A stretch of 64,000 bases of DNA from assembly GCF_964194155.1 (NCBI RefSeq), contig NC_135879.1, forward strand, positions 102,982,001 through 103,046,000, written 5' to 3'. Both the position numbers and the translations under genes were made by a program. Under the pieces are notes generated by a model. That model did no database searches. It saw only the letters and a program-made list of their open reading frames with translations, and was not told the DNA's origin. Numbering within the stretch: position 1 is the first letter of the stretch; each line of letters opens with the position of its first letter. Source of the stretch: Cetorhinus maximus (lineage: Eukaryota). Positions 28,901-60,729 of this stretch are shown piece after piece.

Positions 28901-29218
28901 ACAGGGCCTCAGACAGGGGATCTAACAGTAGGAGCATGGAAAGATTCAGCAGGCAAGTAGAGGTTGAAGCTTGACGAGACAACATAGTAGAGTAGAGAGT
29001 GCTGAATCTTCACAAAAACATAGCAGAAGCAGGAGTCCTCATGGCCAAGAAGTTTTTGTAATGGCCAATAAGTTAGGGGATAAAGCTATACAGAAGGTTA
29101 AAGAGAGGGAGTTGTATAATTGGTGGGAGATTGGTATGTATTCAGAAATCCCAAATAAGAATCCGCCAGCATTGTAACATAAGTGGCCTGGAAAAGGTCC
29201 AACTGGATGGAAGTTATA

Positions 29219-29909
29219 GGGCAGAATATTCCGCTTGGCATGTGGGTGGGTGCCCAACACACTCAAGCATGAAATAGCATGCAATGATGTCGGGTGAGCA
29301 TCCTACTTCATCATACACTCACGTGTTATTTTGGTCAGCGGGCATGCGCTAGAGTCGGCAGCATGCTCGCCGACAATTAAGAGGTCTATTAAGGCCATTA
29401 AAGTAGCAATTAGTGGCAATTTTTCGCTGCCCGTCCAACGTAACAGTTGGTGGCCAAATCAGCCAGGAGGCCTTTGCATTTTTGAGGAAACCTCATCCAA
29501 GGTCACGATGAGGTTTCTGTGATTAATTAATAAAAAGATTAAAATGTTTTGAAAGAACTTTCTTCATCCGTATGTTGAGGTGTCTCATTCTGACACATGG
29601 ACATTTTTTCCTGAGTTTACATTCTGTTTTAAATGAATTTAAATTTGTCAGTTCCCTGAGGCAGCTCTCTGCCTTCAGGGGGCTTTCCTTCCACGCTCCC
29701 CCGCACCTGCGCTGACTTCAGCACTCGCCCTCCTCCTGCCCCTACCCCGGCAGCACTGAGCCTTTCAGTGCACCTTTCATGCTGGCTGGTCATTAATTGG
29801 CCAGGCAGCATGAATTCGTGGTTGGGGCCTGGTGGTGGTCGGCAGTCCGTTTCCCAGCCGCTCCCGAGCCCACCAGTCGTGGTGGCCCGCCGATCCAAAA
29901 ATTCTACCC
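29219..29909 (-). mobile_element. Harbinger-type MITE inserted in Copia RT
   Basis: GGGCAGAATATT / AAAATTCTACCC ends and ATA TSD. Removal restores DGSYKAKSRLVAWGFE. Confidence 0.93.
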
Positions 29910-31790: not shown

Positions 31791-31998
31791 ATGAATCGAT
31801 GTCACAAGTCTAAAACAAATGTTGGAGAAAAAGGAAATCTCGAAGCTCCAATGGGTCAATACAAGCCATCAGTTATCAGATTGTTTCACCAAAAGGAAGG
31901 CTTGCACTGAACTGAATTATTGGGGGTATTAGAAGAGGGACAACTCAGGATGTGAGTTTTGAAAATGTGTGTCTTATTTTTCTGTCTTCAGCTTTATT

Positions 31999-33700
31999 GG
32001 GCCATAACTTCCTCGGAACGGCAATCAGCGTCGGATTGCCACTCCGTGTCTTATTACTTACACAAATTTTCTTCCATGCCTGTCTCACCCGACCATCTGG
32101 CTCAGACCAGGCAAGATCCAGGCAGCGCAGCTGTCTCCGAAGCCCAGCGTCGCAGTCCAGCAGAGTCGGATCGAAGAAGGACACGCACCCTTTTTTAGGG
32201 TACTAGCTGCTGTAAAGCAGGTGACTTTAAAGGTCCGATTGAAGTTGACAGGCCCGGTAGAAGGTAAGTGTCTAAGGTAAGTGGGTAGGATTTGGGAGGC
32301 GGAGGGATCAGAGGTCAGGGGTGAGAGATGTTGGACATCAGGGGTTGGGGTGGTGGGGGTTGGACATCGGTAGGAGGGGTTGGGGTGGTCAGACACCAGT
32401 GGAGGCATTGTCAGACATTGAGGGGGAGGGGGGCGGTGTTGGACATGGGGGAGGCTGGGGGTTGTCAGACTTCAAAGAGGGGTTGGGGGCCAGTGACTGT
32501 GAAAGTGACTGTGGCACTCAATTTTTACGCCAATTGCTCCTTTCAGGGCTCCACAGGTGACCTCTTTGGGATATCACAAGCCTCCACCCACAAATGCATC
32601 CATGAGGCCACAGAAGCCATCTTCATGAGAGCACACAACTTTGTACATTTTGCCCGGGACCAGGACAGCCAGGATGCAAGATTGATTGGATTTGCCCAGA
32701 TCTCAGGTTTCCCACAAGTGCAGGGTGCAATTGCTCACAGTAATCAGCACCAGGCTTTGCAGGAAGCACCAAATGACTTTCAAGGGGGTGTCAGAGGCAA
32801 GTCTCTACCTACCAGAACAGTGATAAGGCAAAGGTGGTTTTAATAGGCTGCAAAGTTAGGGCTGCACTGGAGGGTACCGGTGGGGAAGGCTGCCCTCAGA
32901 CACATGACCGGGGGGAGGGTGCGGGAGGGTTATCATCCTCTGTGGCAGGATGGGCAGAGAGTATGTTACAGAATGACATAAGCCACTTGGAGCCAGAATG
33001 GGAGGGAGACTGAGTGAAGAAGCGCCTCAGTTCACATTATTGAGCTTGCAAAGACTGTCCATGTCTCAGTCCAGGGAGGAGGAGGGCATGTCAGTCCCAG
33101 CCTCAGTCGTGCTCAGCATGTTGTGTGTAGTGCAATGTCGTAACATCACATGCCTCGGTCCATGGGGTTTCTGGCAACATATTGGGCCGTAGTTGGCACA
33201 CTCAGTCAGGGGAGGCATCTGCAGCCTACAGGTGCGGAAAAAGCATTGTGGGGGTATCTGAGGCTGTGTGTGGGGGGTGGTATCTGTGTAACTGTGCAAA
33301 TGTCCTCAAGATAGGGAGGGGTGAGGTTAATTCACGACATAGATACATCCACCTCAAAATGTTAAGGGGCTAACGAACAGGTATCCACCACAATCATGAT
33401 GGGATCAAGGAAAACAGAGGGCGGATTGCGAGGTCTGTGAGGGAGGGAAACCTGAACATGAAGCTACTTTGGGATGATGGGAGGGGTTTCCTCACTCATA
33501 CAGGGAGGGTCCAAGCTGATCTGGCAGTGAAAGCTCAGCACCACCACCTTCCATCCTGCAGCAATGGCGCAGCACAAAATTAAAATGAGAAGAAGCTCTG
33601 TTGGTGAGGGCTCTAAGGGGGCATTGGCAAGCAGGTGCATTCACTGGGGGGGGGCGACTAAAGGGGCACCAAACTGAATTGTGTATTCCCAAATAAGGAG
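31999..33700 (+). mobile_element. Deleted Harbinger element with transposase fragment (about 32488-32732) and degenerate minus-strand Myb start
   Basis: GGGCCATAACTT terminus. VKVTVALNFYANCSFQGSTGDLFGISQ...GFPQVQGAI. Right boundary uncertain. Confidence 0.75.
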
Positions 33701-34299
33701 AGATGCACAGCTGAGACATGTTAGGAGCCTTTCAATAACAGTGCAGGGAAAGTGAAGCAATGATGCACATTCATGCGAATCCAGCAAAGTGGCACTAATT
33801 GATCTCTTTGTTTTAACCCTTTGTTCACAGCATGAAAATTCCCCAGAGGGATAACAAACTCCAGAGCAATTGGGCAACTGGGCAAGCCCCAGAAGTGTTT
33901 TAGAATCGTGGCACTGGACTGTTCACTGAAGAGAAGCCTCAGGCCCCCGTCAAATAATCTCATTTCCTGACTAAACATTTACCTTGATGTTTATTCCAGA
34001 GTGTAGTATCAGAGTGCAGTGAATGAGGAGCCGAGTGCCTGGGCTGAAAACAATACATTCAAGCACCTGGCCAAAACAATGTCAGTTGGTCATGTAAAGG
34101 TTGGGGTTGTTGGGAGCACTTGAAACACACCCCACACTGGCCATCATTTCAAGTGCGTGTAGTTGCCAACACAGGAACAAAGCTCTTGAACCCACATTCA
34201 CTGACGAGTCATTGGCAGAAAGAGGGCCTTTGGAGACTGATGCTGACTCATGTCTGTTTCTTATTGATGCTGCAGAGAGGAGACCATCAGGAAGGTGGA

Positions 34300-35505
34300 G
34301 GCTGGGTTTATTGTTGCTCGCATAACCCCAAAAAAGCAGGAGAGAAGGAAAAGATTGCAATGGAGGCACCTGGCTTGCCTAAGGGAGGACCAAAATGTAG
34401 AGGATGAGGTTCACAGAGACATCATGTGTAGGCAGCTTGCAAGACTGAAGGTGTACTGAACTCACCTGTCTTATCTTCAGATGAGCGAGAACCAGTATCA
34501 CCGACGCCTCCACGTGTCCAGGGATCTGGTGACTCGCATTTGCCACATTCTCCAGGAATTGGTGCCATGAGGACTGGGAGGGCATCCATTGCCACTGGCT
34601 CTGAAGGTAATTCAGCACTCAACTTCTATGCCACCGGCTCCTTCCAGGGCTCCACTGGGGACTTCTACGAGATCTCTCAAGCATCCACGCACAAATGCGT
34701 ATATGAGCTGACATACGCCTTTTTTGCCAAGACCTACAATTACATCAACTTCGACAGAGATCAAGCAAGCCAGGACACCAGAGCACTGGGCTTCGCAGAG
34801 ATTTCCAGATTTCCATAGGTACAGGGTGCCATCGACTGCACTCATGTGGCTATATAATCTCCCTGGCAACAGGCACTGCAATATATAAACAGGGAAGGCT
34901 ACAACTTGCTCAATGTACAGCTGGTCTGTGAACACAAGAAACTGATCATGCAGGTTTGCACCAGATACCAAAGAAGCATCCACGACTCATACATCTTGAA
35001 TAGATCACAGGTCCTGGATATCTTCCAGGGACCACACAGGATCCAGGGCTGGCTCCTCAGTGACAAAGGGTACCTGCAATGGTTGATGACGTCTGTTTGG
35101 CGACCTCAGACCCCTGCAGAGAGAAACTAGAACAAGGTTCATGTTGCTTGCCAAACAGTGGTGGAGCACACCATAAGGGTCTTAAGATGTGATTCCGATG
35201 CCTCAACAGATGTGGCGGAGCACTCCAGTACAGCAACCAGATGCTCTCACAGATCATCGTGGCTTGCTGCACTCTGCACAAACTGGTGCTGAAAAGTGGG
35301 GGGGATAGCACTTGCCAGATGCTGACATGGAGGAACTACACATCTCATCCGATGAGGAGGACATCGAAGGGGATGAGGGCGTTGAGTTGGAGGAAGTCAA
35401 GGCTGCAGGGGAAGGGGCCATGGCATGGGCCAGATGAGACAGGCATGCGTGTGAGGCCCTAATAGCCACTAGATTCCACGAGGAGAAGGATGAGTTGCAG
35501 TGACT
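34300..35505 (+). pseudogene. HARBI1-like DDE transposase (DDE_Tnp_4 type), decayed
   Basis: ALNFYATGSFQ, GAIDCTHVAI, LNVQLVCEH, SIHDSYIL, WLLSDKGY, VVEHTI, IIVACCTLH and an acidic tail. Multiple stops and frameshifts. Confidence 0.93.
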
Positions 35506-36407
35506 CTTAGACCAGCACCCTCCATCATGGGCCAACATTAACACCAGTATTGCTATTCTTCCTATTTCAACCATGAACTTCAATATGAGAGTGAGTAGTC
35601 ACACATCAGGCTCACGTTGTCCTGAACCTTTGAAGAATAATGAAGCCTCAGGAGCCTGTGTCCTTGCTGAGATGAGGTACTAACTGGAGGAGGGAGTCCC
35701 AGCATCAGGCATCAGGAGGTGCTGCCTCTTCAAGCATCTTTCCAGCATCCAATCACAGTGGCAGCCCAATAGCTGCCCCAGTATCGTCAGTGGGCACGTA
35801 GCACGTAGCTTCTATATGACAAAGCTCCTCAAGGAGATCCATCTCCAGTAATGGGACAACACATTCTGTGTAACGTTGATGGTGAAACTGATAGGTGACA
35901 CTTGGGCCCAGGCAGCCAAGGACATTCTGCAAGTGTGGGTCTATTCAGAGATGACTCAATCTTTTGTCACCTTCTTCTCAATCACATTAACATCCGGCAC
36001 TCCCAATTAGGAATGCTGGCCCGTTTTTACCCTCGCCTTACTATACATGTGGATCACCTGAGGATGACAACATTCAACCATTTGAGTGCCAGACATTAAA
36101 ATGTCTCCTCTTTAAGACACACATTGTGCTCTCATGGCCCCTGTGAACTCCAAAATGCTGAGACAACATGAAGCCCTCAAGGTGACGAGCCATTGCTAAT
36201 AAAAGCAGGCTTTGGCTTCAGTACATCCTCTCTCCTATCCCATTGCTCCCCTTAAAATTGTCTAAAATTACAATGTACGCTTCCAGAGCATGCTCAAAGG
36301 CTTTATTGACCATGGAATATCACCATTTGCAATTAGCATCACTCGTCTCAGCCAATGGTTAGGTAATGGGACGCACAGCACTTCATCCTAACATTGTGAT
36401 GAAAGCC

Positions 36408-36920
36408 TTATGGATGGCTCAAGGTTGTAAATTCGAGTGCCATGGCAATAATGTGGCTGAGAGGGGCAGATATTTGGCACCTTGAGGTGGCAAGATCCCC
36501 CCATTTATTGGTCAGTTTAGCAGGTGTATACTCAGAAAGCGGGAATGCGGTTGGCAGACAGGAGCGGACACAAGTTCTGAATATTTTCTCATAGCATGAA
36601 AACCCTGCCGGATGATGGACAGCATGTGGAGTGGGATGATTTCTGACCCTTCTCCAAGCGTAAACACATCTCTTCTTGTCCAATACATCTTGACCTTTCA
36701 AGAATGCAGACGAGATTGGAGAACACCTCTTCCTCAGTCTTACACAGCCAAGAATAAACATGACATGACTCTGCAAAGAATGTGAACGAGGGTCGTTCCG
36801 CAAAACACGCTTAACATTAAGGCCTGGCAAAGGGCCACACACTGTGGTGATATGGAAGCATGCTGCATAGATGAGGGGCCCACAATAGCGACATCTGCGA
36901 TAAGTGGGAGAAGGCACCAT
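36408..36920 (-). CDS. Candidate third (cargo) ORF of a Harbinger element, Cys/His-rich, 170 aa, unknown function
   Basis: Open for 170 codons from ACCATGG, downstream of the Myb stop. Aligns at codon level with 48157-48471. Confidence 0.45.
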   Translation of the reverse strand: MVPSPTYRRCRYCGPLIYAACFHITTVCGPLPGLNVKRVLRNDPRSHSLQSHVMFILGCVRLRKRCSPISSAFLKGQDVLDKKRCVYAWRRVRNHPTPHAVHHPAGFSCYEKIFRTCVRSCLPTAFPLSEYTPAKLTNKWGDLATSRCQISAPLSHIIAMALEFTTLSHP

Positions 36921-37057
36921 GGTATCACACCTGATTGACAGTGACACAGCTCACCTTAAAAAGGAAGCAGACAGAAGAGATGTGAAATGGGTGTGATTGC
37001 ATTTACATTTGTGAACATTATATACATGTTGTGAACACCCTTGCCACTTTTCTGCTC

Positions 37058-38527
37058 CTAAATTTTTTTAACTTTCCTAACCCTACCGCTACGTCTTGGT
37101 GCTTCCCTGACATGCAGAGCGGAAGTGGAGGTGGCCTGCTGACTGCTACGCCCTGTTGTCTGTGAGGTCCTTGGTGGGCATCCTCTGGAGGGCCGAGACC
37201 TGGAAGGCCTGGCCTGCTTTGGGTGCTCTGCTGTGGGGCAGGTGCACCCCCTTCGGCCTGTGGAGATGGAGGTGATGGGGTCACAGGAAGAGGGGATTAG
37301 GATCGGCTGGACAATCCGAGAGGTACCTGGGTGGATGGCCCCAAGGTGTCCAGCTGCTGATACTCCTCATTATGGCCCTAGAAGGGGGATCTGGAGTGAT
37401 ATCTAGGTGCCTCGCTCCCCCACCACCCCCCCAACTCCCCCATCTCATGTAGCCACTGATGGATAGCACCAATGGCTACAGCGATGGACCACTACTCCTG
37501 CAGCAGTGTAGGACTGATGTCCTGCATCAAGGTCTTCATGGTGGCCAACACCATACCAGTGTTGGCCTCGATGCATTGGCATGCCGGCATAGGCCAAAGG
37601 TGGCGGACTCCTCCATCCTCCCTTGCAATCTGAGGAATGCAGCTGTCATCCCTTCCTGATGTTCCCATGAATGTCGCTGCTGCTCCAGCAACTGACTTAG
37701 GACTGAGTCCGGAGGCTCATCATCTGACTTAGATTTAGCAGTACTGTGAACTCCAGCAGTCCTCCAAGTGCCTGCGACCTTGGATGTCCCAGCCTCGGCC
37801 TGCTGTGGACCAGATTGTGCACTGTGTTCACAAGATTGTGACCCCGAGGCTGCTCTAGAACTAGGTCCCACTGAGGCGTTTGTCTCTGTGGTGGTGCAAG
37901 GTGTGAGTGAGCGCTGTAATGGGTCTTCTATGATGCTCTCCTCTAGTTCCTCATCCGAGGTGTCATCGGGCCTGGCTTGTGGATTCCTTTGGGCACTTTC
38001 CAGAGGTGCCTATGAAAGGGAATAGAGACAATTAGTGCATGGCAGGCAACTCTAAAACAGGACAATGCAGTCACTGCATGGTTTTCTAATGGATGAGCTG
38101 GTGCAGGATCCTCCCTTGGGTGTGCGCCACCCACCGCACCGTTGGCATCGGCATGGTCCACGTCCTCTCCAGCCAGCTCGATGGCTCTGTTCTCATAGGG
38201 AGTGAGGATCTTGATTTCTGCCACTCCGCCCCTGGTCTGAGACCTCTCCCTCTGATTGTGTGTGAGCTTCCTGCATGAAGACGAATGGAGAGTGTGAGCA
38301 GAACACATGCCAAGGCAGATGATAAGGAATCCTGGCATGAGTGGGTGGTGAGTGCAGCCATGGACAGGATGAGGAACTGAACTGCAGAGGATATGAGGCC
38401 AGATAGATGTGTGAAGGTTTGTGTGAGAGAGTGAGCGGTGCTGTCCATTTAGCTGGCAGTGAGTGAGATGCCAGTGAATGTGTGATGGATTTGTGAGTGT
38501 TTGAGTTGAAGATGATGAGATGGTTGA
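37058..38527 (-). pseudogene. Harbinger Myb/SANT-partner gene, exons 2-3, convergent with the transposase
   Basis: KLTHNQRERSQTRGGVAEIKILTPYENRAIELAGED, acceptors at 38271 and 38010, C-terminus APRRSGRVRKVKKI*. Exon 1 is lost at the Gypsy junction. Confidence 0.85.
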
Positions 38528-40190
38528 TGTGGTAATTATGGTTTTATCTAATGTGTAATATATCTTTAAGAAGAATATTACTAAGAAAGATCACATGATC
38601 TTAGTACCCAATAGGAGAGTGGCGTAGGCTGCCTCTGTAGTTAGAAGTTAGTAGTCAGTAGTTAGTGGTGTAGAGATAGAGTTTGTAGTGAAGGCACACG
38701 TTTAGTTGCTGCTGAGTACCTTTGTAAATAAACTAAAATTTCCACCTAATGAAGTATCTGCTGATCAACTCTATCAATAGTACCAACTCGGCCACCACTC
38801 ACAACAAACTGGCAACGAGGATAAAACAACTTTAATAGAAGAAATCAAGTAAAATGAAATCAGCACTGTACCTCGCACAGTGAGTGTAAGTAGAAGTTCT
38901 GTTCAAATTGTCAAAGTAATTCCCTCTTGAAATGCCGCAATTCAGAAGAATTGATCCTTTTGATCCAACTGCGGACGATTGGTCTCATTACATTGAATGC
39001 CTTGAGTTCTTTTTCCAAGTGACCGAGATTATGGGGGAAGAGAAGAGGCAGGCAATCCTTTTAAGTACATTTGGGGGTAAAACCTATGGCTTGGTTTGAA
39101 GTTTGATGGCATCCAGTGCCCCATATTCGAAACATTTTGTTGAATTGGTGGACCTCATGAAGGGTCATTATCAACCAAAGCCCTCAGTAATGACGCAAAG
39201 GTCCAAGTTTAACTCGAGAAATAGAGCCCTGGGGTAGACAGTTGCATGTTTTGTGGCAGGTTTGAAGCAATTAGTGGAACATTGTGAGTTTGGTGCATCC
39301 TTAAACGACATGCTCAGAGATCATTTAGTGTGCGGTGTGAATGAGGACATGATTCAGAAGAAATTATTGGCCGAAGTGAATTTGGATTTCAAGAAGGTGC
39401 TATAAACAGCACTGGCTGTGAAAATCGCAGTTAGAGATTCAAAAGCCATACAGGGCATGCAAAATGGCACCGTCCTCCACATCGGGTAGGAAGCCTCATC
39501 CAAAAAGGGTGAAAAAATACAAGACTCTACCAAGAAGTGGGAAACAGCCTCCGTTAACCGCAAAATGAGGAAAAATGACATCAGCGAAACAAGGAATAAT
39601 TTCAACAGATGTGGGAACAAGCAGTCTTTTAACAATTGGCAGCTTAAAAAAATAGAATATTTTTATTGTCACAGAAATGGACATTTAATGAGACAGTGCA
39701 AGGAAAGAGTCAAGCAGACTTTTGAACAAAAGAATAAACCCAGTGAGATCTACAATGTAGAAGAGCCTGAAGCAACAAATTCAGGTTTTTACTCGTTGTT
39801 TAATTTGAGTGTTGGAAAGACGGAACCAATATATGTAACAGTGAAAATGAATGTTAGAATGGAAGTGGGCACAGGAACTTCCACTACAGTAATTGGGGAA
39901 CATATCTTCAGATGTCTGAATAATGGTGAACATCAATTAAATTTAGAAGAAACAACTGCCCAATTAAAAACATACATCCAAGACATTATGGAAGCCAATC
40001 GGCAAAGCTACACTTGATGGCGGAAGTAGGTGATGGGCCAAGACTCCTGGGGCGAAACTGGCTGAAGGAGATTATATTAGAATAGGCTGAGATTTTCCAG
40101 TTGAGTGCAAGTGGGTTACCAGAGCTACTTCGAAAGTCACAGTCTTCAAGGACAAACTTGGGAAGATCCAAGGGCTGCAGGCAAAAATTT
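38528..40190 (+). mobile_element. Gypsy LTR retrotransposon 5' part (LTR 38528-38806, PBS, gag, protease)
   Basis: TG...CA LTR with AATAAA. PBS TGGCAACGAGGAT (tRNA-Ser-like, 38810). Gag from 38932 (DWSHYIE, LRDHLVCGV, CHRNGHLMRQC). Protease MEVGTGTS and LLGRNWL. Confidence 0.92.
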
Positions 40191-42963
40191 AAAGAGAGAA
40201 AGGAATGAAGGAACAAGGGAATGAGAAAACCCACTCATGGCAAACAGTTGTGAATGCAAGTGAACACCCCTGGCTCAGAATTATCTCTACTATCTTTGTA
40301 TTGTTACAACTGATCACCACAATTGTCATTTTCATCATCTGCCACCTGAAGGTCCTCACTGGAAGGCTGCAAAAATAACATTTGACTTGAGCTAGAAAAC
40401 AGCTCGCATGCCTTAAAAGAACTAAGTGACCATGAAAAGTCGTGAGGAATCAACAGAGTGCCAATATATTTCACCCTCAAACTTGGGAGTTGTAGGTAGG
40501 CCTGGGTGGTTAGATTTTAGTTTAACTTGACTATTTTTATATTGTAATAACTAACGAAGTCTAGGAAGCCACTTTAATACGAATAAATAGCTAAAGAAGC
40601 CATTTTATATTCTGCATTAATCAAATTATTGTTAAGGTAGTCACCAGTCATGAAAAATCGTAGGAATAATGAGTTTTGATTGAGGTATAATTAACGAATC
40701 AATAATCATATTAGGAAGACTGGGTTTTTATTTAACATTCGTAAGTTCAATTGTAAGTCTCTGTGTTTGTGTGAAAAATGCAGTTTCAGACGAACTGTTC
40801 TGGCAATGAAGCCTTTTGAATCCTTGATAAAGGTCCCTAGGAAAGGCACATTGTGACATTGTAGAGTCTGGCCCAGTGAAAAGAGAAATTGTTTAAAATC
40901 AGATTGCAGACTGAGTGAAACAACTCCATTGTATTCCTGTCTGAGCCGCTGCGGCTATGTAACCACTGTGACCAAGAACCAATCAAATTAACCTAGCAAC
41001 AGCTAGGTCCAATTAAGAAATTAGGAAAAGCCTTACTCTGACGGAGGGTGATGGTCACTCGAGTTAAAAGCCAGGGCTCCGTAGAGTTTTGTTGCTAACC
41101 ACGTACTGACGACTCTTGAAGCAAGAACCACATGCCCATCGCTGCAAGTGGAATCGTGTCCAAGACGAAGTCTTGAGAGGGTTACGCTTCAACAGACTGA
41201 TCACCCGGGCGAAGATGTAGAAGCCATTGGATGGAATCATCCCAGGTTTGCACAAAATGCGGTAGCGGGTGGGAAAAAAGCTGTTTCAGCCGCCGGCCGC
41301 AATGGTGGGTTTTTTCCCCCGTATCATTCCATTCCCGGCGTGTCCTGCCTCATTAATAATGCATTCAAGGGAAAAACACCGGTTCATTGGCAGGTAGGCT
41401 TGGATTTGCCTGCCACGCTGTGACCTCAGCGCTTCCTCGCTCTAGGCGCCATATTTAAAATGCACCAGAGCGCAGCCTACTTCATGTCTGCAGACCCGTA
41501 CTGCCCAAGGCAGACAGATGGCCCCGAAAGCTAAGAAGATGGAGGCCCCCAAACTGCACCTGCTGGACACAGTGGAAGGCTGCTGCAATGTCCTCTACCT
41601 CTGCTCTGTCCACAGGAGGCACAGCAGGGTCACCAATCCAGCCTACGAGGCGGTGGCAGCGACGGTCAGCACCACCAGAGCAACAGAGGAGGTCAGCCAT
41701 CCAGTGCAGGAGGAGGACAAATGTTCTCATCCATTCCGCCAGGGTAAGTCAACCATCTCATCACTCTCAACACACACTCACAAACCCATCACACATCCAC
41801 AAGGATCTCACACCTCAAAGGACAACACCACTAACTCTCACACATACCCTTACATCTCCATCAGGCTCATACCCTCTGGAACTTGCGTCCTCATCCTGTA
41901 CATGGCTCCACTCACCAAACAAACATTCCACACAGTGCCATGTGTCCTGCTCATGCTATCTCCATCTGTTCCCATGCAGGAGAAGCTGGTTCCCATCAGC
42001 AGGGAGAGGTCCAAGACCAGGGGCGGAGTGGCCGATATTAAGCCCCATACTCACTTTGAGGAGTGTGCCATCATGCTGACTGGTGAGGATGTGGACTGTG
42101 CCTATGGCGACAGTGAGGTCGGCAGCAAACACCCTCGTGAGGATCCTGCACCACATCATCCCTTTCTCAACGTAAATGTGAGTGCTCCCTCTCCTGTTTT
42201 TGACTCTGGTGCCATGCACAAATTATCTCTACTTTGGTTCACAGAGAGCTCTGCCGAGTGACCGATACCCTCAGCCAGCCAGTCCCTCAGCTCCATCCGT
42301 GTCCTCACCTCCTCCATGAAGAGCAGGAGATAAGCAGCCTGGTAGACCCATCACAGAGCTTACCCACACCCTGCACCAGCGCAGAGACTCACACCTCGGT
42401 AGGACCTAGATCTAGAGCAGGCTCGGGTTCACAATCTGGTTGTCACTGCACGGATGCATGTCCTCAGAAGGAAGAGGCAAGTTCAGTCGAGCTTTCCGGC
42501 ACTTGGAGGACTGCTGGGGAAGATGCATCTATGAGGTCTGTGTCAGATGACAAGCCTCTGGATTTGGCCTTCCAACTCATCATGAAGAGTCAGCAGAAGG
42601 CGAGGGAACATCACACAGAGCTGCTGGAAGCCCACAACACAGTGGCACGCAGGTTGGAGTTATGTGTCTGCCTGCTTTCTGATGAAGTGGTGCCCACATA
42701 TGCGCATACGGAGGTCCCCATTGGAAGGATGGCAGACACCAAGGATGCCCTGCTCCATCAGAACGTGGAGTTGTGCACAGATCTGCACTCCATCGTGGTA
42801 GCCATGGGTGAGTCCCTGTAGTGGCAATGCGAGAGGGAAACGGGGCACCTCGACATCCCTCCAGCTGCTTCTTCCCCTCAAGGCATCAGGCCAGAGCTCT
42901 CAGACATCCAAAGGGAGGAGGAATGGCAGCTGGACACCCCTGGGTCATCTACTCTGTAATCTC

Positions 42964-43730
42964 TGTAATATATATAATGTTATTGGATTTTTTTTTAAAA
43001 TAGAGATTAACCTGTGGGTGTGTCTGTGTGTGTGTTTTAATTAGATTAAAGCCAACTAGTCTGGGTGCTTTGATGTAAAGTAGTTTTGAGATGTAAACAG
43101 AGGTAGAGGTATATTTGCATTTTGTTGGATAGAGCATTCAAGAGTGGGAGTGAAATCTTGCACCTAACGAGGAGACACCAATCAATGTTTATATTATTAA
43201 TAAAATTGGTACTATGAAAGGGGTTTTATTGTAAAAGAGGTGGAGTTCAAAGGGCCTGGTGGTACAATGAAAATTTACATTCAAAGAGAAGTGCTGGGTA
43301 TAACCTGAGGGGAGTTTGTGTTTTCAGAGCAGAGGCATGTAACATCTAAGCAGCTGTAAGCCTACAACTGTCTGCAAAGGAACCAAATTGAAAGGAACCT
43401 CATTTTGAATTCATAAGGTGAAAATGCTTTACCTGGTGTCTGCGTAAATCTATTGGTTATTGTTGCCTTAGTGGAGATTAACTTGGGAATTTAAAAGTTA
43501 TGATAGTAGTAATTTATAGTCATGTGTATATTTTAATTTGTTGTAAATTAATGAATGTCTTATTTAGTTTGACATCAAAACCTCTCGAGAATTGGTGGTC
43601 TTCTTCCTGAATTTAGAAATTTAGAGCTGCATCTCAAACATACCAGTTGAAAATATAGGTTATGACGTTTGTTTAAAGTATCCCTCTGGGATTTTAAATA
43701 CCAGCCTTTACCAACTGCCGTGTCATAACA
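42964..43730 (+). mobile_element. Solo LTR inside Myb exon 3
   Basis: TGTAAT...ATAACA, AT-rich, absent from the sister copy near 57000-57070. Confidence 0.8.
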
Positions 43731-43958
43731 GGGAGCAGCTGGCCCACAGAAGGATGGCCAAAGCAAGCCAGGGTCTTCAAGGCTACAGGTGTCTTCACCC
43801 CTGCTGCGGATGTCAGGGCAGCACCTAGAAGAAGTGGTAGGCCTAGAAAAGTTAAGAAATTCTGATCACAAGTGGTTGTACGGGTAAACATATTTTGTCA
43901 CTTCATAATCTGAAAATATATTCACTTTCACTGAATAATGCATAACGTTTTCTTTCAG

Positions 43959-45060
43959 CTTCATTGACAGGTTTCGCAAGTCCTTCCCCTGCATCCCCCT
44001 CCGCTAGCAGTTCAATTGCACGCAGCTGGGCCACAAGTAGTTTTGGAGGGAGTAGTCTCTGTGTGGCAGGACCTTTAGGAGCCTCATGCGAGCACTCTCT
44101 CACGCACTCAGAGCCTTCATCCGACACACTGTCCCAAGCATTTTCAATGCTGCCTGCTGGGGCTCCCTTTCAATTGTCCATCTGAGCTGATCTGCATCTC
44201 TGCCCACCCACTGACTTCACTCCCATGCAGCACCTATGCTCGCCCAACATGAGGATCCGCTCACTTTTGATATCGACAACGATGATCGTAGTCAGATTTT
44301 CACTCAGCTACGCTGTTCTTTCCCCTCCCCCAGTCAACCATGTCCTTTTTCCCATCACTGTCAATCCTCCTGGCATCACTTTCCACTTCCCACTGTCACA
44401 TACCAACCCAAACCATTGTCTTTCCAGATGTCCAGGTGAACGTGCATGTTCCCTAGCTTCCTGAGAATCCCACCCCCATCCATATGGACCTCCCCAACCT
44501 CCTCCTTCCCACCCTCAGGGTCTGTGTCTGCCTCCAAGTCTCCACCAACCACCCTCACCATCTCTTCTAATACTACTAATGCATCTTCACCCTCCCACCC
44601 TTGCGGCTCCCTCTACACTCTCTCATACTCACCATTCCCTCCTAACACGCCCACCCTCAGTTCGCAATCATTGACCTCCCACACCCCCACCCTTGAATGT
44701 TCACCTGGATATCCCCCACCCTTTACTCTCTCCTCCGCCCTTACTCGCTCCTCCCCCCAGACACCTTTCTCCCTCTGAACTCTTTCCCCCCTCCGAACTC
44801 CTTCCCCATTCCAAACCCTTTCCCTTACACCTTCCTCCCCCCTTACACCTACCTCCCTACTTGCTGCATTCTCCCCGTTACACCCTCCTCCCCACGTACA
44901 CCCTCCTCTACCTCCCAACCTCACCCCCACCAAATGAACCTTCCTCTCTCGTTAAAACCTGGACCTTCCACTCCCACCACCCCGGCACACCTTCATCTCC
45001 CACTCACAGCTGGACCTTCCTCTTCTCCCCGCCCCTCGCTGATCATCCATAGCAGCCCAA
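43959..45060 (+). pseudogene. Decayed candidate cargo ORF (Leu/Pro/Thr-rich) of a Harbinger element
   Basis: Aligns with 56713-55640 (minus) with synonymous and conservative changes. Most stops are copy-specific. Confidence 0.55.
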
Positions 45061-46077
45061 GGCCTAGACCGTGATGTCCTGAATCAGACCCGAGACATCA
45101 ATGGAGACCTCCCACCTTCCGTGAGCTGCTTTGTGACAGAGCCACATCCATGAGGATCGACCCAGCATGTGATGCACGTGTACCTCCAGGATCTGGTTGC
45201 TGTAGGGCTCCAGTATCTCCTGCTCCTCTGATATCTGCGGTCTGAGCAAGGCCCTAATGGTAAGTCCCAGCTTCTGCAGGTCACACTTGTCCAGATGTGT
45301 TTTGGGCCAGCGTGTTTTCCTGCTGGCTAACGGTAAATCTGGAATGGGGGGGAACGATTCCAGTTGGGCCTTACTTTGCATCCCTTTAGCGGGATGCAAA
45401 GTGGGTTCACGCCAGCCTCCAGTGGGTTTGGCATTGGCGGACACCATCAGATGATCCCTATGTGCTTTCACGCCAGCGTGAAACCGATTTTTGGCCTTGT
45501 CACCATGTTGCATGCCCCCTCCCCCCAGCCAGCCATGACGCCTGATGCCAGCAGGGCTGGAAAATGCCGGCCATTGTCCTGAGTTACTAAGTATAACTTT
45601 TTCTATTTGTTTTGTCTTAATAAGTTAAGACTGTCTGAACCGAAGTTCACTTACAAATTGGGTTGGCTGAAATAAATTGTGTTACAGATAAAAACAGATA
45701 ACACAGTGTATGGACAGGGTCATAATCTAATAAATTAAAGTATAATGGAATACTCCATGAAGGCAAAAAACGAAAGTTAAAATATTGAAGTAAAAAAAAA
45801 AGTACAATTGCTTACTTAATGCATCCAGCTGAAATTTCCTCTGAAATTTTAGTGAAGATGTTGACCCTTTTGCTTTAACATGACTGCTGAAATGGCATAG
45901 GTGAACCTCGGATGAATGGATCATGTTCAAGCACCAATGTCCCATGGTGTAATTTATGGACGTGACACAGAAAGGCCTTTCTAGTTGATCAAGCTATGCA
46001 TGAATAAACGTGAGAACACAACTTCATAATTTGATGAAAAAAATAAATATAAAACAGTAACAAATATACAAACACAC

Positions 46078-48778: not shown

Positions 48779-51700
48779 GGGTGGAATCTAATTCTGCTCC
48801 AGGGAGTGGCAAACGAGGCTGATGGGGGGAACTTAATTGCATGGGAGGTGAAATATGTGATTCCTAACAGCAGGATGAAAGTTGGGAATTAAGGTGGCGG
48901 TAAATTAAAGGCAAGTTGCAATTCCAGACGGCAATCAGCGGGAACTATTTTAATGCATTAGCATGTCATGCATACTAATTAAAACACATGGTCACCAGAT
49001 TAAATTGTACTTTTACAATTAAGTCAGCAGCAAATGAGAAATACATGCCTTCAGATTCACAACTGGTTACAGGTTGCGTGCAGCAAGTGAGATATTCTTC
49101 CTGGTAGATTTGGAGTGAGTAGGAGGTGTTTTTGTTCTCTGGGGAACTTTGTTAGACCAGGGGAGAGGAGACTGAGCTGTTGCATTGAGCTCAGGTGGTG
49201 GCTGTCCAGGGATGTCAGGGCATGGCTGTCCGAAGGAGGAAGGTTGGGTCATAGCGGGCCTAGGAGTATTCAAGGGGGACAGAGGGAGGAAGCTAGATGA
49301 CAGAGGGAAGGTCAATCTCTCCCAAAGGCGGATCAAGCATGATAGAGAGATTAAGCTTGATCGAGGTGTAGGAGAGTGAGGGAGCCAAAGATAGATGGTG
49401 GTAGAGGGAAGGTTGAGGGTGATGGGGAGGCATGTCCAGGGTTCCATGGGCCAGATCTAGGTTGACACAATGGATAAAGAATGATGTTGGGTAGCTCAAG
49501 GGTCACTGAAGGCAGGGCAAGGGTTATGGAGGGGTGGGGGAGGGTCAAACGTGATGGAGAGAAGGTCATGTACAGTATTGGTCACCTTATTTAAGGAAGG
49601 ATGTAAATGCATTGGAAGCTGTTCAGAGAAGGTTTATCAGACTAATACCTGGAATAGGCAGGTTATCTTATGAGGAAAGGTTGGACAGACTAGGCTATTA
49701 TCCGCTGGAGTTTAGAAGAGTAAGAGGTGACTTGATTGAAACATATAAGATCCTGAGGGGTCTTTACAGGGTGGATGTGGAGAGGATGTTTCCTCTTGTG
49801 GGAGAATCTAGAACCATGGTCACGGTTTAAAAATAGGGGGTCGTCCATTTAAGACAGAGATGAAGAGATTTTTTTTCTCTCAGAAGGTCGTGAGATTTTG
49901 GAACTCTGCTCCATAGCTCGATTTCCCCAAGTACAAGGGGCAATTGATTGCACACGTGGTCTTGGGGGTTCCCTGGGAATAGCCAGCAGTGTTCATAAAC
50001 ACAATGGGGTTTCATTCCATCAATGAAACTTCCATCAATGTGCAGCTGGTTTTTGATAATTGAAAACAAAAGCTGCAAGTCTGTGCTCACTCCCCAGGGG
50101 GCTCTCATGACTCTTACATTCCCACTCACTCTTACGTGCCACAGCTGTCTGAGCCCCCCTCTGCCCCCGATGCAAATCTGTAGCAATGTCTCCTGGGTGA
50201 TAGGGAATATCCACAGAAGACCTGGCTCATGACACCTGTGAAGAACCCACAAAGCCCAGCAGAGAAGGGGTATGTCTGCCATGCCTCATCAAGGACAACA
50301 ATGGAACAGACCATTGGATTGCTGAAAGTGAGGTCTCATTGCCTGGGCCACTCAGGTGGGGCACTGCAGTTTAGACCAGCGAGTCTCCAGAAGTATTGTG
50401 ACTTGCTGTGTCCTACACAACTTCTCGCAAAGAAGTGATGAATTTGCAGATGGGGAGATGGAAAAGATGGAGTCATCCTCAGGCAAGGATGAAAGGGAAG
50501 AATCAGAAGAGCCTGAGGTGATGCATGGTGCGGCTCCAGCTGCAGAGGGCAGGGTGATGTAGCCAGACAGGCCCGGGACACCCTCATTGAGTCTTGATTC
50601 CAGCCAGATTCAGACCCCTGCAGGATTGCTTGATTTCCAACTCAAGAAATGTTGCTGTGGAATTGCTGCCGCATCTGGTATAGTCCTTCAAAACCAAGGC
50701 CCACAATCTCTGACACCAGGATGAGAAATAGCTGCAGGCCCCTGGCATGAACAAGTCTATGTGTATGGTCCCATCATAAACACTTCTGACTTGGAGGGAT
50801 GTCACACATGACTCAGTCACGCACGCTCAAATCCTGGAAACACCTTGCTCAGAAGTCTATGTGTTCTCCTGTAAAATATGGAATGCCTCAGCTGCAGATG
50901 CTACTGAGACAACAGCTTCTGAGGGATGATGAGGGGATGCGCAACATATGCCAGCTTGTCAGCAAGTTTACTATCTCCCAACTTAACAAAAGTTGCCAAA
51001 CATAGAAAATACCATATGTCGAGAAGCTCAGATATACCAATGCTTTCGAGGATCCACACTAAATGAGGTGTCCATAACCCCCACATCAGCCATCACTGAG
51101 TTTCAATAATGAAACAATGGGACTTCACCTTCAGCAATCCTTAAAAGCCCCTGTCTGGTGTCAGAAGTCCCAACAACATGATCATTCAACGCATATGAAT
51201 GAAGTGTTCAAAATTATATATTTACACATAAACTTACGATGTCATAAAATGATTGGACACCCGTGATGCCACGTGCTATGAGAAGATTTTTCACTTACGA
51301 TTTCTAACAATACATCTTGGCGCGACCCCCACATCTGCAGCTGAGGTGGAGGCAGCCGGCTGGGTGCTATGCCCCATTGCCTGAGGCGACTTTGGCGGCT
51401 GATGGTCGGGGCCCTAGAGGGTTCCAACCTGCTGAGGGTCTCCTGCACAGGTGCAGGCGCACGCTCTTCGGCCTCACCTACTGGAGGCACTGGGGCCACT
51501 GGCAGAGGTGAGGAGAAGCAACAGCTCACCATTGGAACATCCTGAGATAATGCCCCCAAAGCAGCTTGCTGGCATTCCTCCTCCCTGTTGGTACACGATG
51601 GTACCTCCCTGACTCCAGGATGAAAAGGGACACCTGGAGGGAAGCTGAGATGCCTTACTTCCCCATCTTGTGTATAGATCCCATGGCCAGGGTGATGAAA

Positions 51701-53779: not shown

Positions 53780-54491
53780 GGGCAGAATTTTCAGGTCGGC
53801 GGGCGGATGCGGTGACTGGACCTGGGAGCGGCAGGGAAACAGTCCGCCGCCCGCGATCAGTCCCCAACCGCGATTTCACGCTGGCTGGCCAATTAACGGG
53901 CAGCCAATGTGAAAGGCGCGCTGAAAGGCTCAGCGCTGGTGAGGTGGGGGTGTGAGGAGGGCGAGCGCTGAAGTCAGCGCGGGCACAGGGGGAGCGTGCA
54001 ATGAAAGCTCTCTGAAGGCAGAGAGCTGCCTCAAGGAGCTGAAGAATTTTAAATACAAAAATATAGATTTTGAAATTCTGACAAAAATGTCCCCACATCA
54101 GACTCCCTCACACGAACACGTAGGTTATAAAAATTCTGTCAAAACATATTTTTCAAAATTAATAGCGGAAACCTCATCCAGCCTGTGGATGAGGTTTCCT
54201 CAAAAACTCAAAGGCCGCCTGGCTGATTTGCCCGCCCGCCCGATTTGCCAGCCCGCCAACCATAATGTTGGACGGGCAGCAAAAAAATCAGACTTAATTA
54301 ATAAATTAATGGCCTTAATAGGCCTCTTCATTGTCAGTGGGCATGCTGCTGACTCTTGCGTGTGCCCGCCGACCGAAATATCGCGCGAGGGTGCGTGATG
54401 ATGTCAGGACGCTTGCCCGACGTCATCACCTGCTAGTTTAGGCCTGATCGGGTCAGACGCACGCCTTCCCGCTGGAAGTATAATCCTGCCT
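53780..54491 (+). mobile_element. Harbinger-type MITE
   Basis: GGGCAGAATTTT / TAATCCTGCCT ends and ATG/GTG TSD. Confidence 0.9.
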
Positions 54492-55617: not shown

Positions 55618-58600
55618 CCTGCTTCAGAACATCATGGTCTTGGCGAACTGGGTGGGGATGGGAAGTCTAACTGTAAGTGGGAGAGGTAGGTGTATGGGTA
55701 GGGGTGGGGTGTTGTGGTGTTAGGAGAGGAAGGTCTAGGTGTGACTAGGAGAGGAAGGTATACCGAGTGGGGTGAGCTTGGGAAGGGGGAAAAGGGAGTT
55801 TGGAGAGGGGAAGGTGTCCAGGAAGGAGGAGGGAGTACAGAGGGGGGATGGTTGTCCGGGGGGACGAGCGAGTTTGAGAAGGGTAGGTGTCCAGGGGGCG
55901 GAGGGAGTAAGTAGTGTGCGGGCAGGGGGATATCCAGGTGAATATGCAAAGGAGGGGCCTGTGGAGTCAATGGCCACCTCCTGGGGAGCAAACTAATGGT
56001 GGGCATGGTAGGAGGGAATGGTGAGTGTGAGAGGGGGCAGAAGAAGTCAGTAGGGTGGGAGGGTGAGGGTGCATTGGTAGCGGTAGAAGGAACGGCGAGG
56101 GTGGTTGGTGGGGACTCAGAGGCAGACATGGACCCTCAGGGTAAGAAGGAGGAGGTCTCGGAGATCAATGTGGATGAGTGTGAGATTCTCAGGAAGGTAG
56201 GGAACATCCATGTTCACTTGGACATCCTGGAAAGACAAGGGTTTGGGTTGGTGGCTGACGGTGGGGAGGCGGAAGGTGATGTTGGGGGGTTAAATGTAAT
56301 GGGGGGAAAGGATGTGGGTGACTGGGGGAAGGGAAAGCACGGGGGAGCTGATCAAAAAGTTCACTACGACCTTAGTTGTTGAAATCAAAATTGAGCGGAG
56401 ACTCGTGTTGGACAGGCACAGGTGCTGCATGGGAGTGTGATCAGTGGGTGGGTGGAGATGCAGGTCAGCTCAGATGGACAACTGAAAGTGAACCCCAGCA
56501 GGCAGCATTGAAAACATTCAGGACATTCATGTGAGTGTGATGAATGAAAGCTCCGCTTGTGTGGGAGAGCGCTTGTACAAAGCTCCAAAAGGCCCTGCCA
56601 CACATACATTTATCCCTCCAGAATCAATCGTGGTCTGGCTGCGAAAAGCTGAACTGCTAGTTGCCTGGGGTGCTGGTGTGCAGGGAGAGGACTCACAAAG
56701 CCAGTAAATGAAGCTGAAAGACACTATTACATATTATTCAGTGAAAGTGAATATATTTTCATATTATAAAGTGACAAAATTTGTTCACCTGTGCAACCAA
56801 CTGTGATCAGAGTTTCTTAACTTTTCTAGGCCTGCCGCTTCTTCTAGGTGCTGCCCTGACACCTGCAGCAGGGGCGGAGACAGCTTGTGTAATGGTTGGC
56901 CCCGCTGCCTCTAATAAATTCATCTTGTGTCGTCCGGAGAGCAAAAGCCTTGAGGGCCCAGGCTTGCTTTGTCTGTCCTTCTGTGGGCCAGCTGCTCCCT
57001 CAGCGGTGACAGAGGATGAGATTGAGGGGATCACAGGAAAAAGGAACTTGGAGGGAGAGGACAGCCTCTGAGATTACTGAGTGGATGACCCAGGGGTGTC
57101 CAGCTGCTGCTCCTCCTCCCTTCGGGTGCTCGAGGGCCCCAGCCTGACTCCTTGAGGGGAAGGAGCACCTGGAGGGATGTTGAAATGCACTGTTTGCCTC
57201 TCTTGTTGCCACTGCAGGAACTCACCCATGGCTACCACAATGGAGTGCAGGTCTGTACACATCTCCATGTTCTGCTGGACCAGGGTCTCCCTGGTGTCTG
57301 CTATCCTCCCCATGGAGACCTCAACATGGGAGTACCACTTCATCAGAGAGCAGGCAGACGCACTCTTCTAACTCGTGTGCCACTCTGTTGAGGGCTTCCA
57401 ACAGCTCAGCATTCTCCTCCACCTTCTGCTGACTCTCCACAGTGAGCAGGAAGGCCGAATGCAGACGCTCATCATCTGACTCGGCCCTAAAAGATGCCTC
57501 TTCCCTGACAGTCTTCTGGGGAGCTTAGCTGAACTTGCCCCCTCCTGTTGTGGACATGTGTCCATGTGGTAACCACCAGGTTGTGAGCTTAAGCCTGCTC
57601 TAGATCTATGTCCCACCAAGGTGTTTGTCTCTGTATTGGTGCAATGTGTGGGTAAGCACTGTGACGGGTCTTCCAGGCAGCTTATTTCCAGCTCTTCAAT
57701 GGAGGAGGTGTTCCTCTTCGTTGGAGGTGAGGACATGGATGGAGCTGAGGGAATGGCTGGCTGGGGGTGTCAGCTGCTTGGCAGAGCTCCCTGTAAACCA
57801 AAGTAGAGATATTACAACATGGCAGCAGAGTCAAATGCAGGAGAGAGAGAGAGAGAGAGCATTCATTGTTGCATTGAGAGAGGGATGATATGATGTTGGA
57901 TCCTCACGAGGGTGTTTGCCACCGACCTCACCATCACTGCAGGCATGGTCCACGTCCTCACCAGTCAGCATGATGGCACACTCCTCACAGTGAGTGAGGG
58001 ACCCAATGTGGGTCACTCCACTCCTGGTCTTGGACCTCTCCCAGCTGTTGTGAGCCAGCTTCTCCTGCATGACAACAGATGGAGAGAGTGTGAGCGGGAC
58101 GCATGGCCCTGTGTGGAATGTTTGTGTGGTGAGTGAGCCATGGAGAGAATGAGGATACAAGCTCCAGAGGGTATGAGCCTGATGAAGATATGAGGGTGTG
58201 TGTGAGAGTTAGTGATGTTGCCCCTTGAGGTACAAGATCCCTGTGGGTGTGTGATGGGTTTGTGAGTGTTTGAGTTGAGAGGGATGAGGTGGCTGACTTA
58301 CCCTGGTGGAACAGATGAGATCATTCGTCCTCTTCCTGCAATGAATAACTGACTTGCTCAGTGCTCCAGTGGTGCTGACCACCATTGCCACAGCCTCCCA
58401 GGCCAGATTGGTGACTCTGGTGGGCCAAAGCGGGGGTAGAGGACATGCCGACGGCCTTCCACTACGTCCAGCAGGCGCCCCAGAGAAGCGTCACTTAATT
58501 TGGGGGCTGCTGTCTTTTTTGCTTTTGGAGCCATTTGTCACCTGGAGCAGTCCTGGCCTGTAGACATGGGGCTGGATTTTCAGCTTGGCGTGTGGCAGCT

Positions 58601-59483
58601 GGCCCGACACGCATCAGCATGAAATAGCGCGCGATGATGTCAGGCGAGCGTCCCGACATCATCACCCACTCGTGCGATATTTCGGTCGGTGGTTGCGCGC
58701 AGGAGTGGGCAGCGCACCCGCTGATAATTAAGAGGTCTGTTAAGCCCATTAATAAATTAATTAAAATGTTTTTTTTCCTGCCCGTCCAACCTTACTTTTG
58801 GCGGGCGGGCAAAAAGGCCAAGCGGCCTTTGGATTTTTGAGGAAATCTCATCCACGGGCAGGATGAGGTTTCTGATATTAATTAAAACTAAAATAAAAGT
58901 TTTTAAATCTCATTTTTAACATGTCCCTGCTCATGTGACAGAGTCACATGAGGGGACATGTTTACCCTAATTTTAAAAGCTTTATTTTTAATGTTAGAAA
59001 TCTTCAGCTCCCTGACAAAGCCCTGTGCCTTCAGGGAGCTTTCACCGAGTGCACCCATGCGCATGCTCTGACTTCCACGCTCACCCTCCTCCCCCCGCGA
59101 CCCAGGCAGCGCTGAGCATTTCAGTGCACGATCCACGCTGGTTGGCTGTTAATTGGCCAGCCAGCGTGAAATCGTGGTCGGGGCCTGATGGTGGGTAGCG
59201 GACCATTGCACGGCTGCTCCTGGGCCCACCTGCCTGACGAGGGGGAAATCCTCCCTATGAAGTAGGCTGTGCTCTGGTGCACTTTAAACATGGCACCCAG
59301 TGCTAGGGAGCACTGAGGTCATGGCGTGGCGGCAACTCTGAGCCCGTGAATGCATTATTAATGATGTGCAATGCACCAGGAAGGGGATGATATAGCACGA
59401 AAGCCCGTCATTGTGGCCGGTGCGTAAAACCACTTTTTCATGCCTGCTACCGCACTTGGTGCAAATCTGGGATGTTTCCACCT
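55618..59483 (-). mobile_element. Harbinger Myb/SANT element, sister of 41229-45572 (one end truncated)
   Basis: Terminus GGGATGTTTCCACCT at 59483. EKLAHNSWERSKTRSG and RAAPRRSGRPRKVKKL*. Colinear with the 41229 element including the cargo region. Confidence 0.9.
58569..59256 (-). mobile_element. Harbinger-type MITE nested in a Harbinger element
   Basis: GGGCTGGATTTT / AAATCCTCCCT ends and ATG TSD. The empty site is visible in the sister copy at about 41480. Confidence 0.92.
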
Positions 59484-60625: not shown

Positions 60626-60729
60626 ATTCTCCTGTTGCTTGTGCATGGCCATATACTGGCACAGAACCAATGTTAACAAGTGCCAACTGGCTTTTCCAGT
60701 GTTGCTTCTCACCATGTGGTTTGGTTAAG
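60626..60729 (+). CDS. Possible internal host exon (104 bp), unidentified
   Basis: TTTTTTAG acceptor and AAG|GTAAGA donor. One open frame, (D)SPVACAWPYTGTEPMLTSANWLFQCCFSPCGLVK. Confidence 0.3.

What the first reader, a model, noticed from the sequence alone, without database searches (positions are those of the whole stretch)
43884..45060. Hidden third ORF (Leu/Pro/Thr-rich cargo) downstream of the Myb gene in two sister Harbinger elements
Seen: after the Myb stop (43865) there is a GT..AG segment (43884-43958, acceptor TTTCTTTCAG), then a same-strand frame shared with the sister element (56713 to about 55735, minus). Frameshift-corrected, copy A reads MLPAGAPFQLSI*ADLHL...MQHLCSPNMRIRSLLISTTMIVVRFSLSYAVLSPPPVNHVLFPITVNPPGITFHFPTVTYQPKPLSFQDVQVNVHVP*LPENPTPIHMDLPNLLLPTLRV. 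Copy B reads MLPAGVHFQLSI*ADLHL...MQHLCLSNTSLRSILISTTKVVVNFLISSPVLSLPPVTHILSPITFNPPNITFRLPTVSHQPKPLSFQDVQVNMDVPYLPENLTLIHIDLRDLLLLTLRV. Many differences are synonymous or conservative, and most stops in one copy face TAC/CAA/CGG/CAG in the other. One TGA is shared and could be a decayed CGA. Established: canonical Harbingers encode only a transposase and a Myb/SANT protein. Inference: the ancestral element carried an additional protein that I do not recognise, occupying the space where the transposase normally lies. The ORF track hides it because it is broken into short pieces.
Basis: partly seen in the sequence, partly recalled or inferred. Interest (0 to 1): 0.78.

Follow-up and report, generated by a model that had tools for sequence, protein, structure and literature searches.

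The report
Transposon with unknown reverse-strand cargo
A very common jumping-gene family carries, where its cutting enzyme normally sits, about 1.5 kb of decayed gene-like DNA that matches no known protein and was likely read on the strand opposite to the one first proposed.

Summary
Copy A (41229-45572, 3-bp target duplication) and truncated copy B are Harbinger-type elements with a Myb-like gene and no detectable transposase. The stretch after the Myb stop is 75% alike in both and belongs to a high-copy family (14,640-27,589 contigs laid per run, three organisms). It is coding-derived: codon periodicity matches that of the Myb and transposase genes, and one register is nearly open. pN/pS is 0.99 (uninformative: Myb control 0.87). 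The 'intron' lies where other Myb genes have their AT-rich 3' tract, and its acceptor tract is partly a copy-A mutation. The exact antisense frame is equally open, which composition makes unlikely (P 0.01-0.02 against 0.28-0.39 for the plus frame). It scores better in position-specific models, and a minus frame stays stop-free for 168 codons nearer the right end, where all plus frames close. The strand is not settled (about 2:1). No protein, family or structure match was found for either frame. A genome-wide consensus would decide.

The parts
41229..45572 (+). Element A: full-length Harbinger-type copy, Myb-like gene on the left, no transposase
   Evidence: ATT on both flanks and weakly complementary GG-starting ends; left end similar to other elements of the window
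41226..41228 (.). Left target-site duplication (ATT)
45573..45575 (.). Right target-site duplication (ATT)
41518..43865 (+). Decayed Myb-like gene, three exons, C-rich introns
   Evidence: A/B alignment 77%; exon 1 of sister D gives only a sub-threshold Myb_DNA-bind_4 hit, E 0.19, and 0 of 5 A/B exon-1 frames hit a Myb family; the label otherwise rests on gene layout beside a DDE_Tnp_4 gene in element C and on recall
42964..43730 (.). AT-rich TG..CA insertion in the last Myb exon of A, solo-LTR-like, absent from B
   Evidence: LTR label is inference
43866..43960 (+).
   Evidence: AATAAT followed by a GT-rich stretch; comparable tract in C and D, AATAAA in D; family G at 43950
43961..44146 (-).
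44144..44665 (-).
44147..45039 (+).
44685..45007 (-). Low-complexity tract, G-rich on the minus strand, with an 18-bp tandem repeat (44719-44908); no periodicity; candidate intron
   Evidence: in B the periods are 35-37 bp
45002..45007 (-). GTRAGT donor-like hexamer kept in A (GTGAGT) and B (GTAAGT) at the border of block 3; the same bases also read as an acceptor-like site on the plus strand
   Evidence: no matching minus-strand acceptor found
45067..45570 (-). Periodic block 3: minus frame with 0 stops in 168 codons; plus frames have 4, 8 and 6
   Evidence: P(best of six = 0) 0.023 in shuffles, stretch chosen after looking; chi2 19.0 for 45060-45400; family letter at 45065 removes the closing TAG
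45260..45265 (+). Plus-strand GTAAGT donor-like site, unexplained by the minus reading
55620..59482 (-). Element B: sister copy, right end lost at about 55620, MITE-like insertion 58568-59230
55978..56508 (+). Block 2 in copy B, antisense frame (plus strand of the window), 2 stops in 177 codons

Best explanation
Shown: element ends, family abundance, codon periodicity in three blocks, near-open register, no transposase similarity. Inferred: the family moved in trans with transposase from autonomous relatives such as element C; the founder carried an open or nearly open minus-strand unit (block 3, then the G-rich tract as intron or low-complexity linker, then block 2 ending at TGA 44144; 250-420 residues, Gly/Glu-rich, predicted largely unfolded); it took over the position, and probably the right-end promoter, of the lost transposase gene; it most likely rode along as a passenger (captured coding DNA or a leftover of the parent element) and was not needed for transposition; all copies have since decayed neutrally.
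For: Periodicity: 4 of 17 periodic regions of the 64-kb window fall in this segment, and most others are known genes. Stops: exact antisense frame has 1 shared stop in 170 codons where shuffles give 5.4-6.3, P 0.01-0.02; its 5 stops all face CAG, CGA, CAA or TGA. Along A the minus path 44147-45420 has 7 stops in 422 codons, and 3 of them are removed by family-majority letters among the 40 sites shown of 289; decayed known Harbinger ORFs here have 1.18 stops per 100 codons. Block 3 is stop-free only on the minus strand. G1-G2 picks the true frame over its antisense in 18 of 22 controls, and gives +0.32 (minus) vs +0.08 (plus) in A 44427-44663, +0.23 vs +0.04 in B. A position-specific model does so in 19 of 22 controls and favours minus frames in 3 of 4 coding-like blocks of A and 2 of 3 of B. 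Family indels at 44426, near 44389 and at 45031 would join the minus blocks in one register (tables 4, 7, 8). Element C shows the convergent layout, and the element at 31990-32730 shows GTAAGT plus a G-rich tract ahead of its transposase piece. No transposase similarity.
Against: The minus reading needs a change of frame between 44350 and 44147 to include block 1, whereas the plus frame runs in one register from 43948 to 45039 with 6 stops in 355 codons of A. In 44147-44386 the plus frame scores slightly higher in both copies. The minus frame also has a shared TGA (44261). The 45031 deletion is seen in only 22-32% of depth. No minus-strand acceptor follows the donor-like site. In control ORFs the exact antisense has 3.2 stops per 100 codons, so both frames being this open is itself unusual. 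A and B are only two copies and the three strand measures share their data. The codon-level model was noisy: 16 of 22 controls right, non-coding controls up to +24 bits, and a third frame scored best in B. No homologue supports the minus protein. 'Passenger' is inference only.
Confidence: 0.48

Rival explanations
1. One reading: a plus-strand Leu/Pro/Thr-rich third ORF (43948 or 44147/44225 to about 45040), expressed by splicing or an internal promoter, with Pro-rich hexapeptide repeats at its end; the minus frames are its shadows.
For: One register over 355 codons with 1 shared stop; third positions are C/G-rich and A-poor (S3 0.66-0.72 in B and A block 2); 19 synonymous codons against 12 in the antisense; the 18-bp repeat in A keeps frame; the family letter at 44645 removes one plus stop; a plus-strand GTAAGT at 45260.
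Against: Openness is expected on this C-rich strand; first positions are 40-43% C and 14-16% G, unlike the control ORFs; it loses on G1-G2 and position scores in block 2; it lies behind the Myb stop and a polyA-like tract; weak donor and copy-specific acceptor tract; it leaves block 3 unexplained; the repeat period in B is 35-37 bp; no homologue at 82-263 or 264-2000 aa.
Confidence: 0.2
2. A mosaic of already dead coding scraps (old retroelement or host exons) captured by the founder; no continuous ORF existed on either strand while the family spread.
For: Three separate periodic blocks with a non-periodic tract between; the best frame changes between blocks; each candidate frame has a shared stop.
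Against: Stop density in the register is as low as in true decayed ORFs; family indels tend to join the blocks; no match to any other repeat in the window.
Confidence: 0.17
3. The segment is the family's own transposase gene, eroded past recognition.
For: Right slot, strand and length; one minus frame at 44246-43956 shows a faint order of residues like the transposase C-terminus (best of 120 pairwise comparisons, p about 0.01).
Against: One such p is expected among 120; hhalign probability 0.4%, P 0.15 and 0.04% for the other frame; Pfam DDE_Tnp_4 finds a 74-aa decayed control at E 8.6e-6 but none of 5 test pieces nor six full frames; DNA alignment z at most 2.2 in 40 comparisons while the control scores 968 against 456; that frame has shared stops.
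Confidence: 0.08
4. Non-coding spacer whose strand bias and short repeats mimic a reading frame.
For: No database match; plus-frame openness is explained by composition; low-complexity C-rich tracts occur in other elements of the window.
Against: Periodicity p 5e-6 and 1e-4 in two copies; true spacers and introns show none.
Confidence: 0.07

Closest known systems
PIF/Harbinger transposons of fish, e.g. zebrafish Harbinger3_DR (two ORFs: DDE transposase and Myb/SANT-like protein; PMC4482050, PMC9179366, PMC9710019, passages read)
   Same: 3-bp target duplication, short GG-starting ends, Myb-like gene with the layout of transposase-bearing element C, about 3.6 kb without the insertion.
   Different: No transposase; its place is taken by coding-like DNA of no known family. 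The duplication is ATT, not the TWA given for PIF/Harbinger (it fits the ANT given for Pangu in PMC4482050).
Non-autonomous internal-deletion derivatives and MITEs of Harbinger elements (own knowledge; MITE-like copies lie in this window)
   Same: High copy number, ends kept, transposase missing, neutral decay.
   Different: Not a simple deletion: 1.5 kb unrelated to the transposases and spacers of elements C, D and others in the window, with codon structure.
PHIS groups with a non-Myb second gene: ISL2EU (YqaJ exonuclease) and Pangu (second ORF without known motif), PMC4482050 passages
   Same: Show that PHIS elements can carry genes of other or unknown kinds.
   Different: There the odd gene partners an intact transposase; here the Myb-like gene stays and the transposase is gone.
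Gene-fragment-capturing DNA transposons such as Pack-MULEs and Helitrons (recalled; Helitron papers seen only in the listing)
   Same: Non-autonomous elements that spread captured coding DNA as passengers.
   Different: No donor gene was identified here, so capture is not shown.

Membership tests
PIF/Harbinger, autonomous | DDE_Tnp_4-type transposase ORF | tested here: not met
   No hit in six frames of A 43866-45577, tblastn and DNA alignment negative; controls C and 50178-50399 are found
PIF/Harbinger, autonomous | Myb/SANT-like second gene | tested here: inconclusive
   Homologous to the partner genes of C and D; Pfam Myb_DNA-bind_4 only E 0.19 for D, none for A or B pieces
PIF/Harbinger (any, including non-autonomous) | 3-bp target-site duplication, usually TWA | tested here: inconclusive
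   3-bp ATT on both flanks, not TWA; no empty site to confirm
PIF/Harbinger (any, including non-autonomous) | Short terminal inverted repeats starting with G or A | tested here: inconclusive
   Both ends start GG and resemble other ends in the window, but are only about half complementary after decay; not listed by the repeat finder
Non-autonomous Harbinger family | Many dispersed copies that share the internal sequence | tested here: met
   All 30 bins of 43860-45600 covered in 4 of 4 runs, 14,640-27,589 contigs each, most 80-95% alike
Functional third ORF | Open frame in the family consensus | tested here: inconclusive
   Only 40 of 289 majority sites were shown; 1 shared stop remains in each candidate frame
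Functional third ORF | Purifying selection | tested here: inconclusive
   pN/pS 0.99 (plus) and 1.12 (antisense); Myb control 0.87 also spans 1
Functional third ORF | Transcript and splice junctions | not testable with these tools
   No RNA holder listed; runs laid were contigs
Known protein family (either strand) | Profile, sequence or structure match | tested here: not met
   Pfam, PHROGs, PDB, 5.8-billion set for the plus frame, 1.84-billion set for the antisense frame, Atlas, viral contigs (61-63): none; coverage of this host's repeats by those sets was not controlled

The most novel reading that the evidence does not exclude
Probability: 0.22. Interest if true: 0.7.

Novelty: new variant of a known kind. 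Interest (0 to 1): 0.4.

Why it matters
The papers read describe PIF/Harbinger elements as two-gene elements (PMC4482050, PMC9179366, PMC9710019, passages). A high-copy family with the Myb-like gene plus an unrelated coding unit in the transposase slot is not covered by searches, which reach open-licence papers only and not Repbase. If the unit was under selection it would be a new transposon accessory gene and directly testable in the Harbinger3_DR transposition assay. If it was a passenger it is a modest case of coding-DNA capture by a vertebrate DNA transposon. The case also shows that a frame open in two copies on a C-rich strand may be the shadow of the other strand.

Tried and rejected
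No whole genome is held, so no consensus could be built. One search covered an off frame of B by mistake (6 candidates, 0 hits). The one phmmer hit for the antisense frame is an exact tandem repeat sharing one 19-residue stretch, which I read as a sequencing-adapter artefact from recall. Atlas: recognition 1079 and 1903, best scores 0.87 and 0.76, leads only. Single-sequence AlphaFold models had mean pLDDT 31.5 (plus frame) and 40.4 (block 3) and were not used for fold searches. DNA patterns: 3 chance matches in brine metagenomes with no similarity to the window, 0 in genome and viral contigs. No Rfam match. No RNA holder listed, which says nothing on expression. Attempts to fetch outside transposases for a better profile found none. 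The prokaryotic promoter scan is irrelevant here. Pairwise dN/dS was rejected as a test because the Myb control also sits near 1. The tblastx E-values are summed scattered pieces and were disregarded. The codon-level model was set aside as noisy. Eroded transposase: tested, not supported. PMC6431247 has no mention of Harbinger or PIF; bioRxiv 2025.06.08.657570 none either. A report of a third ORF in some Drosophila PIF-like elements is recalled only; searches did not show it. Supplements of the papers were not opened and may list related elements.

Full report
Setting. The window is packed with decayed Harbinger-type elements and MITE-like copies. Element C has a Myb-like gene on the minus strand facing a DDE_Tnp_4 transposase on the plus strand (E 4.3e-12). 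Element A runs from 41229 to 45572 with ATT on both flanks; it holds a three-exon Myb-like gene (41518-43865, interrupted by a TG..CA insertion at 42964-43730) and then 1.7 kb up to the right end. Copy B (59482 to about 55620, minus) is 77% alike in the Myb gene and 75.6% in the segment and breaks off at the equivalent of A 45086.

The segment is a family trait. Four runs from three organisms laid 14,640-27,589 contigs each on 43860-45600 at 80% likeness; all 30 bins are covered and most contigs are 80-95% alike. Depth is no copy number, but this is a high-copy repeat. At 24 of the 28 listed majority sites that B covers, B has the family letter, so A/B differences are mostly decay of single copies.

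Checking the observation. The quoted frames and the stop pattern are in the sequence. The claimed synonymous excess is not: phase counts are 14/15/12 and 13/16/17, pN/pS 0.99 [0.64-1.62] over 146 codons. The Myb exons give 0.87 [0.67-1.14] over 373 codons, so this test has no power. The proposed intron has a weak donor; its acceptor tract is longer in A than in B or the family (G at 43950); and the stretch corresponds to the AT-rich tract behind the Myb stops of C and D, where D has AATAAA. I read it as the 3' end of the Myb gene.

It is coding-derived. Base composition by codon position is strongly uneven: chi2 34.5 (B) and 27.5 (A), like Myb exons (28.5) and transposase C (26.4), unlike an intron (6.6), D's spacer (4.6) and the low-complexity tract 44684-45050 (3.6). 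A scan of the whole window finds 17 periodic regions; 4 are in this segment (43921-44130, 44401-44610, 45121-45300, 56041-56430) and 8 others are Myb, transposase or gypsy pieces. Periodicity fixes the register but not the strand.

Which strand. Shuffles give 2.0-2.5 for plus frames (P<=1: 0.28-0.39) and 5.4-6.3 for minus frames (P 0.01-0.02); the other minus frames have 7 and 8. (b) Family letters remove three minus-frame stops of A (44234, 44613, 45064) and one plus-frame stop (44643). (c) From 45067 to 45570 one minus frame has 0 stops in 168 codons while plus frames have 4, 8 and 6 (P 0.023 for the best of six, stretch chosen after looking). (d) G1-G2 chose the true frame over its antisense in 18 of 22 control pieces and favours minus in 44427-44663. 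(f) Two paralogous contigs carry two more bases than A across 44366-44556, loose ends show an extra base at 44426, and a 1-bp deletion at 45031 appears in 22-32% of depth; together these would put blocks 3 and 2 in one minus register of about 420 codons with 7 stops in A. (g) The minus strand is the strand of the transposase in the canonical layout. Against: the plus frame covers 43948-45039 in one register with 6 stops in 355 codons, while the minus reading ends at TGA 44144 and needs another frame for block 1; third positions of the plus frame look typical; a donor-like GTRAGT kept at 45007 in both copies has no acceptor, and a plus-strand GTAAGT at 45260 is unexplained; a codon-level model was noisy and in B preferred a third frame. 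The measures share two sequences. I put minus over plus at a little over 2:1.

What it is not. No transposase similarity by Pfam, tblastn, DNA alignment or profile comparison, with working controls; a faint motif order in one minus frame is kept as a low rival. No similarity to spacers or Myb genes of the window. No match in Pfam, PHROGs, PDB, Rfam, the two large protein sets, the Atlas or viral contigs. The large sets were each searched with one frame only (plus frame; antisense of block 2; block 3 was searched only in Pfam, PHROGs, PDB, Atlas and viral contigs), queries are about 20% decayed, and I had no control that those sets hold this host's repeat proteins, so absence is weak. Structure models were uninformative.

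Mechanism. Shown: a transposase-less, end-intact, abundant element with coding-like DNA facing the Myb gene. Inferred: mobilisation in trans by autonomous relatives, with the Myb-like protein recognising subterminal motifs as described for Harbinger3_DR (PMC9710019, passage); a founder in which the transposase gene was replaced by, or deleted around, an open minus-strand unit; little selection on it afterwards, since proteins of non-autonomous copies act in trans (established reasoning, not tested).

Literature. PMC4482050 (12 of 17 passages) and PMC9179366 (12 of 21) describe two-ORF elements and report none in (elephant) shark, the latter asking for other cartilaginous fish to be tested; PMC9710019 (12 of 27) gives the two-gene rule and the Myb role. 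Searches showed no Harbinger with a third or replacement ORF of this kind; Repbase and subscription papers were not searched. Three earlier AI notes of this scan on algal and diatom Harbinger-type elements with unusual partner genes concern other layouts and were not checked.

Verdict. A real and partly misread feature: new variant of a known kind, interest 0.40; 0.22 that it was a selected new accessory gene, which would deserve 0.70.

Noticed in passing
window 42964-43730: AT-rich insertion bounded by TG..CA in the last Myb exon of A, replacing about 80 bp present in B; looks like a solo LTR.
   Followed up: partly
window 58568-59230, also 4196-4882, 5861-6500, 29216-29909, 53780-54459: A family of about 660-bp MITE-like elements; one copy sits in the 5' part of element B.
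   Followed up: no
window 34290-38530: Element C with a decayed transposase (plus) and Myb-like gene (minus), a 1.5-kb spacer between them, and a gypsy-like remnant at 38960-39700 next to it.
   Followed up: partly
window 36411-36950 (minus): 180-codon stop-free frame in C's spacer, but with no codon periodicity.
   Followed up: partly
window 31990-32730 and 49880-50620: Two more transposase fragments, each preceded by a G-rich low-complexity tract; the first has GTAAGT sites ahead of the tract.
   Followed up: partly
window 44427-44446 and 44694-44713: 20-nt inverted repeat, 85% complementary, 247 nt apart, flanking the most periodic part of block 2.
   Followed up: no
window 23576-25488: Near-identical recent duplication (328 bp at 98%) and a perfect 116-bp inverted copy.
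   Followed up: no
window 7261-7440, 9781-9990, 26881-27060, 38491-38670, 60511-60690: Periodic regions not assigned to any gene here.
   Followed up: no
window 41229-45572: Runs of organisms B and C hold 21-25% of the sampled words and one contig is 95% alike without gaps, so this insertion probably predates their split.
   Followed up: partly
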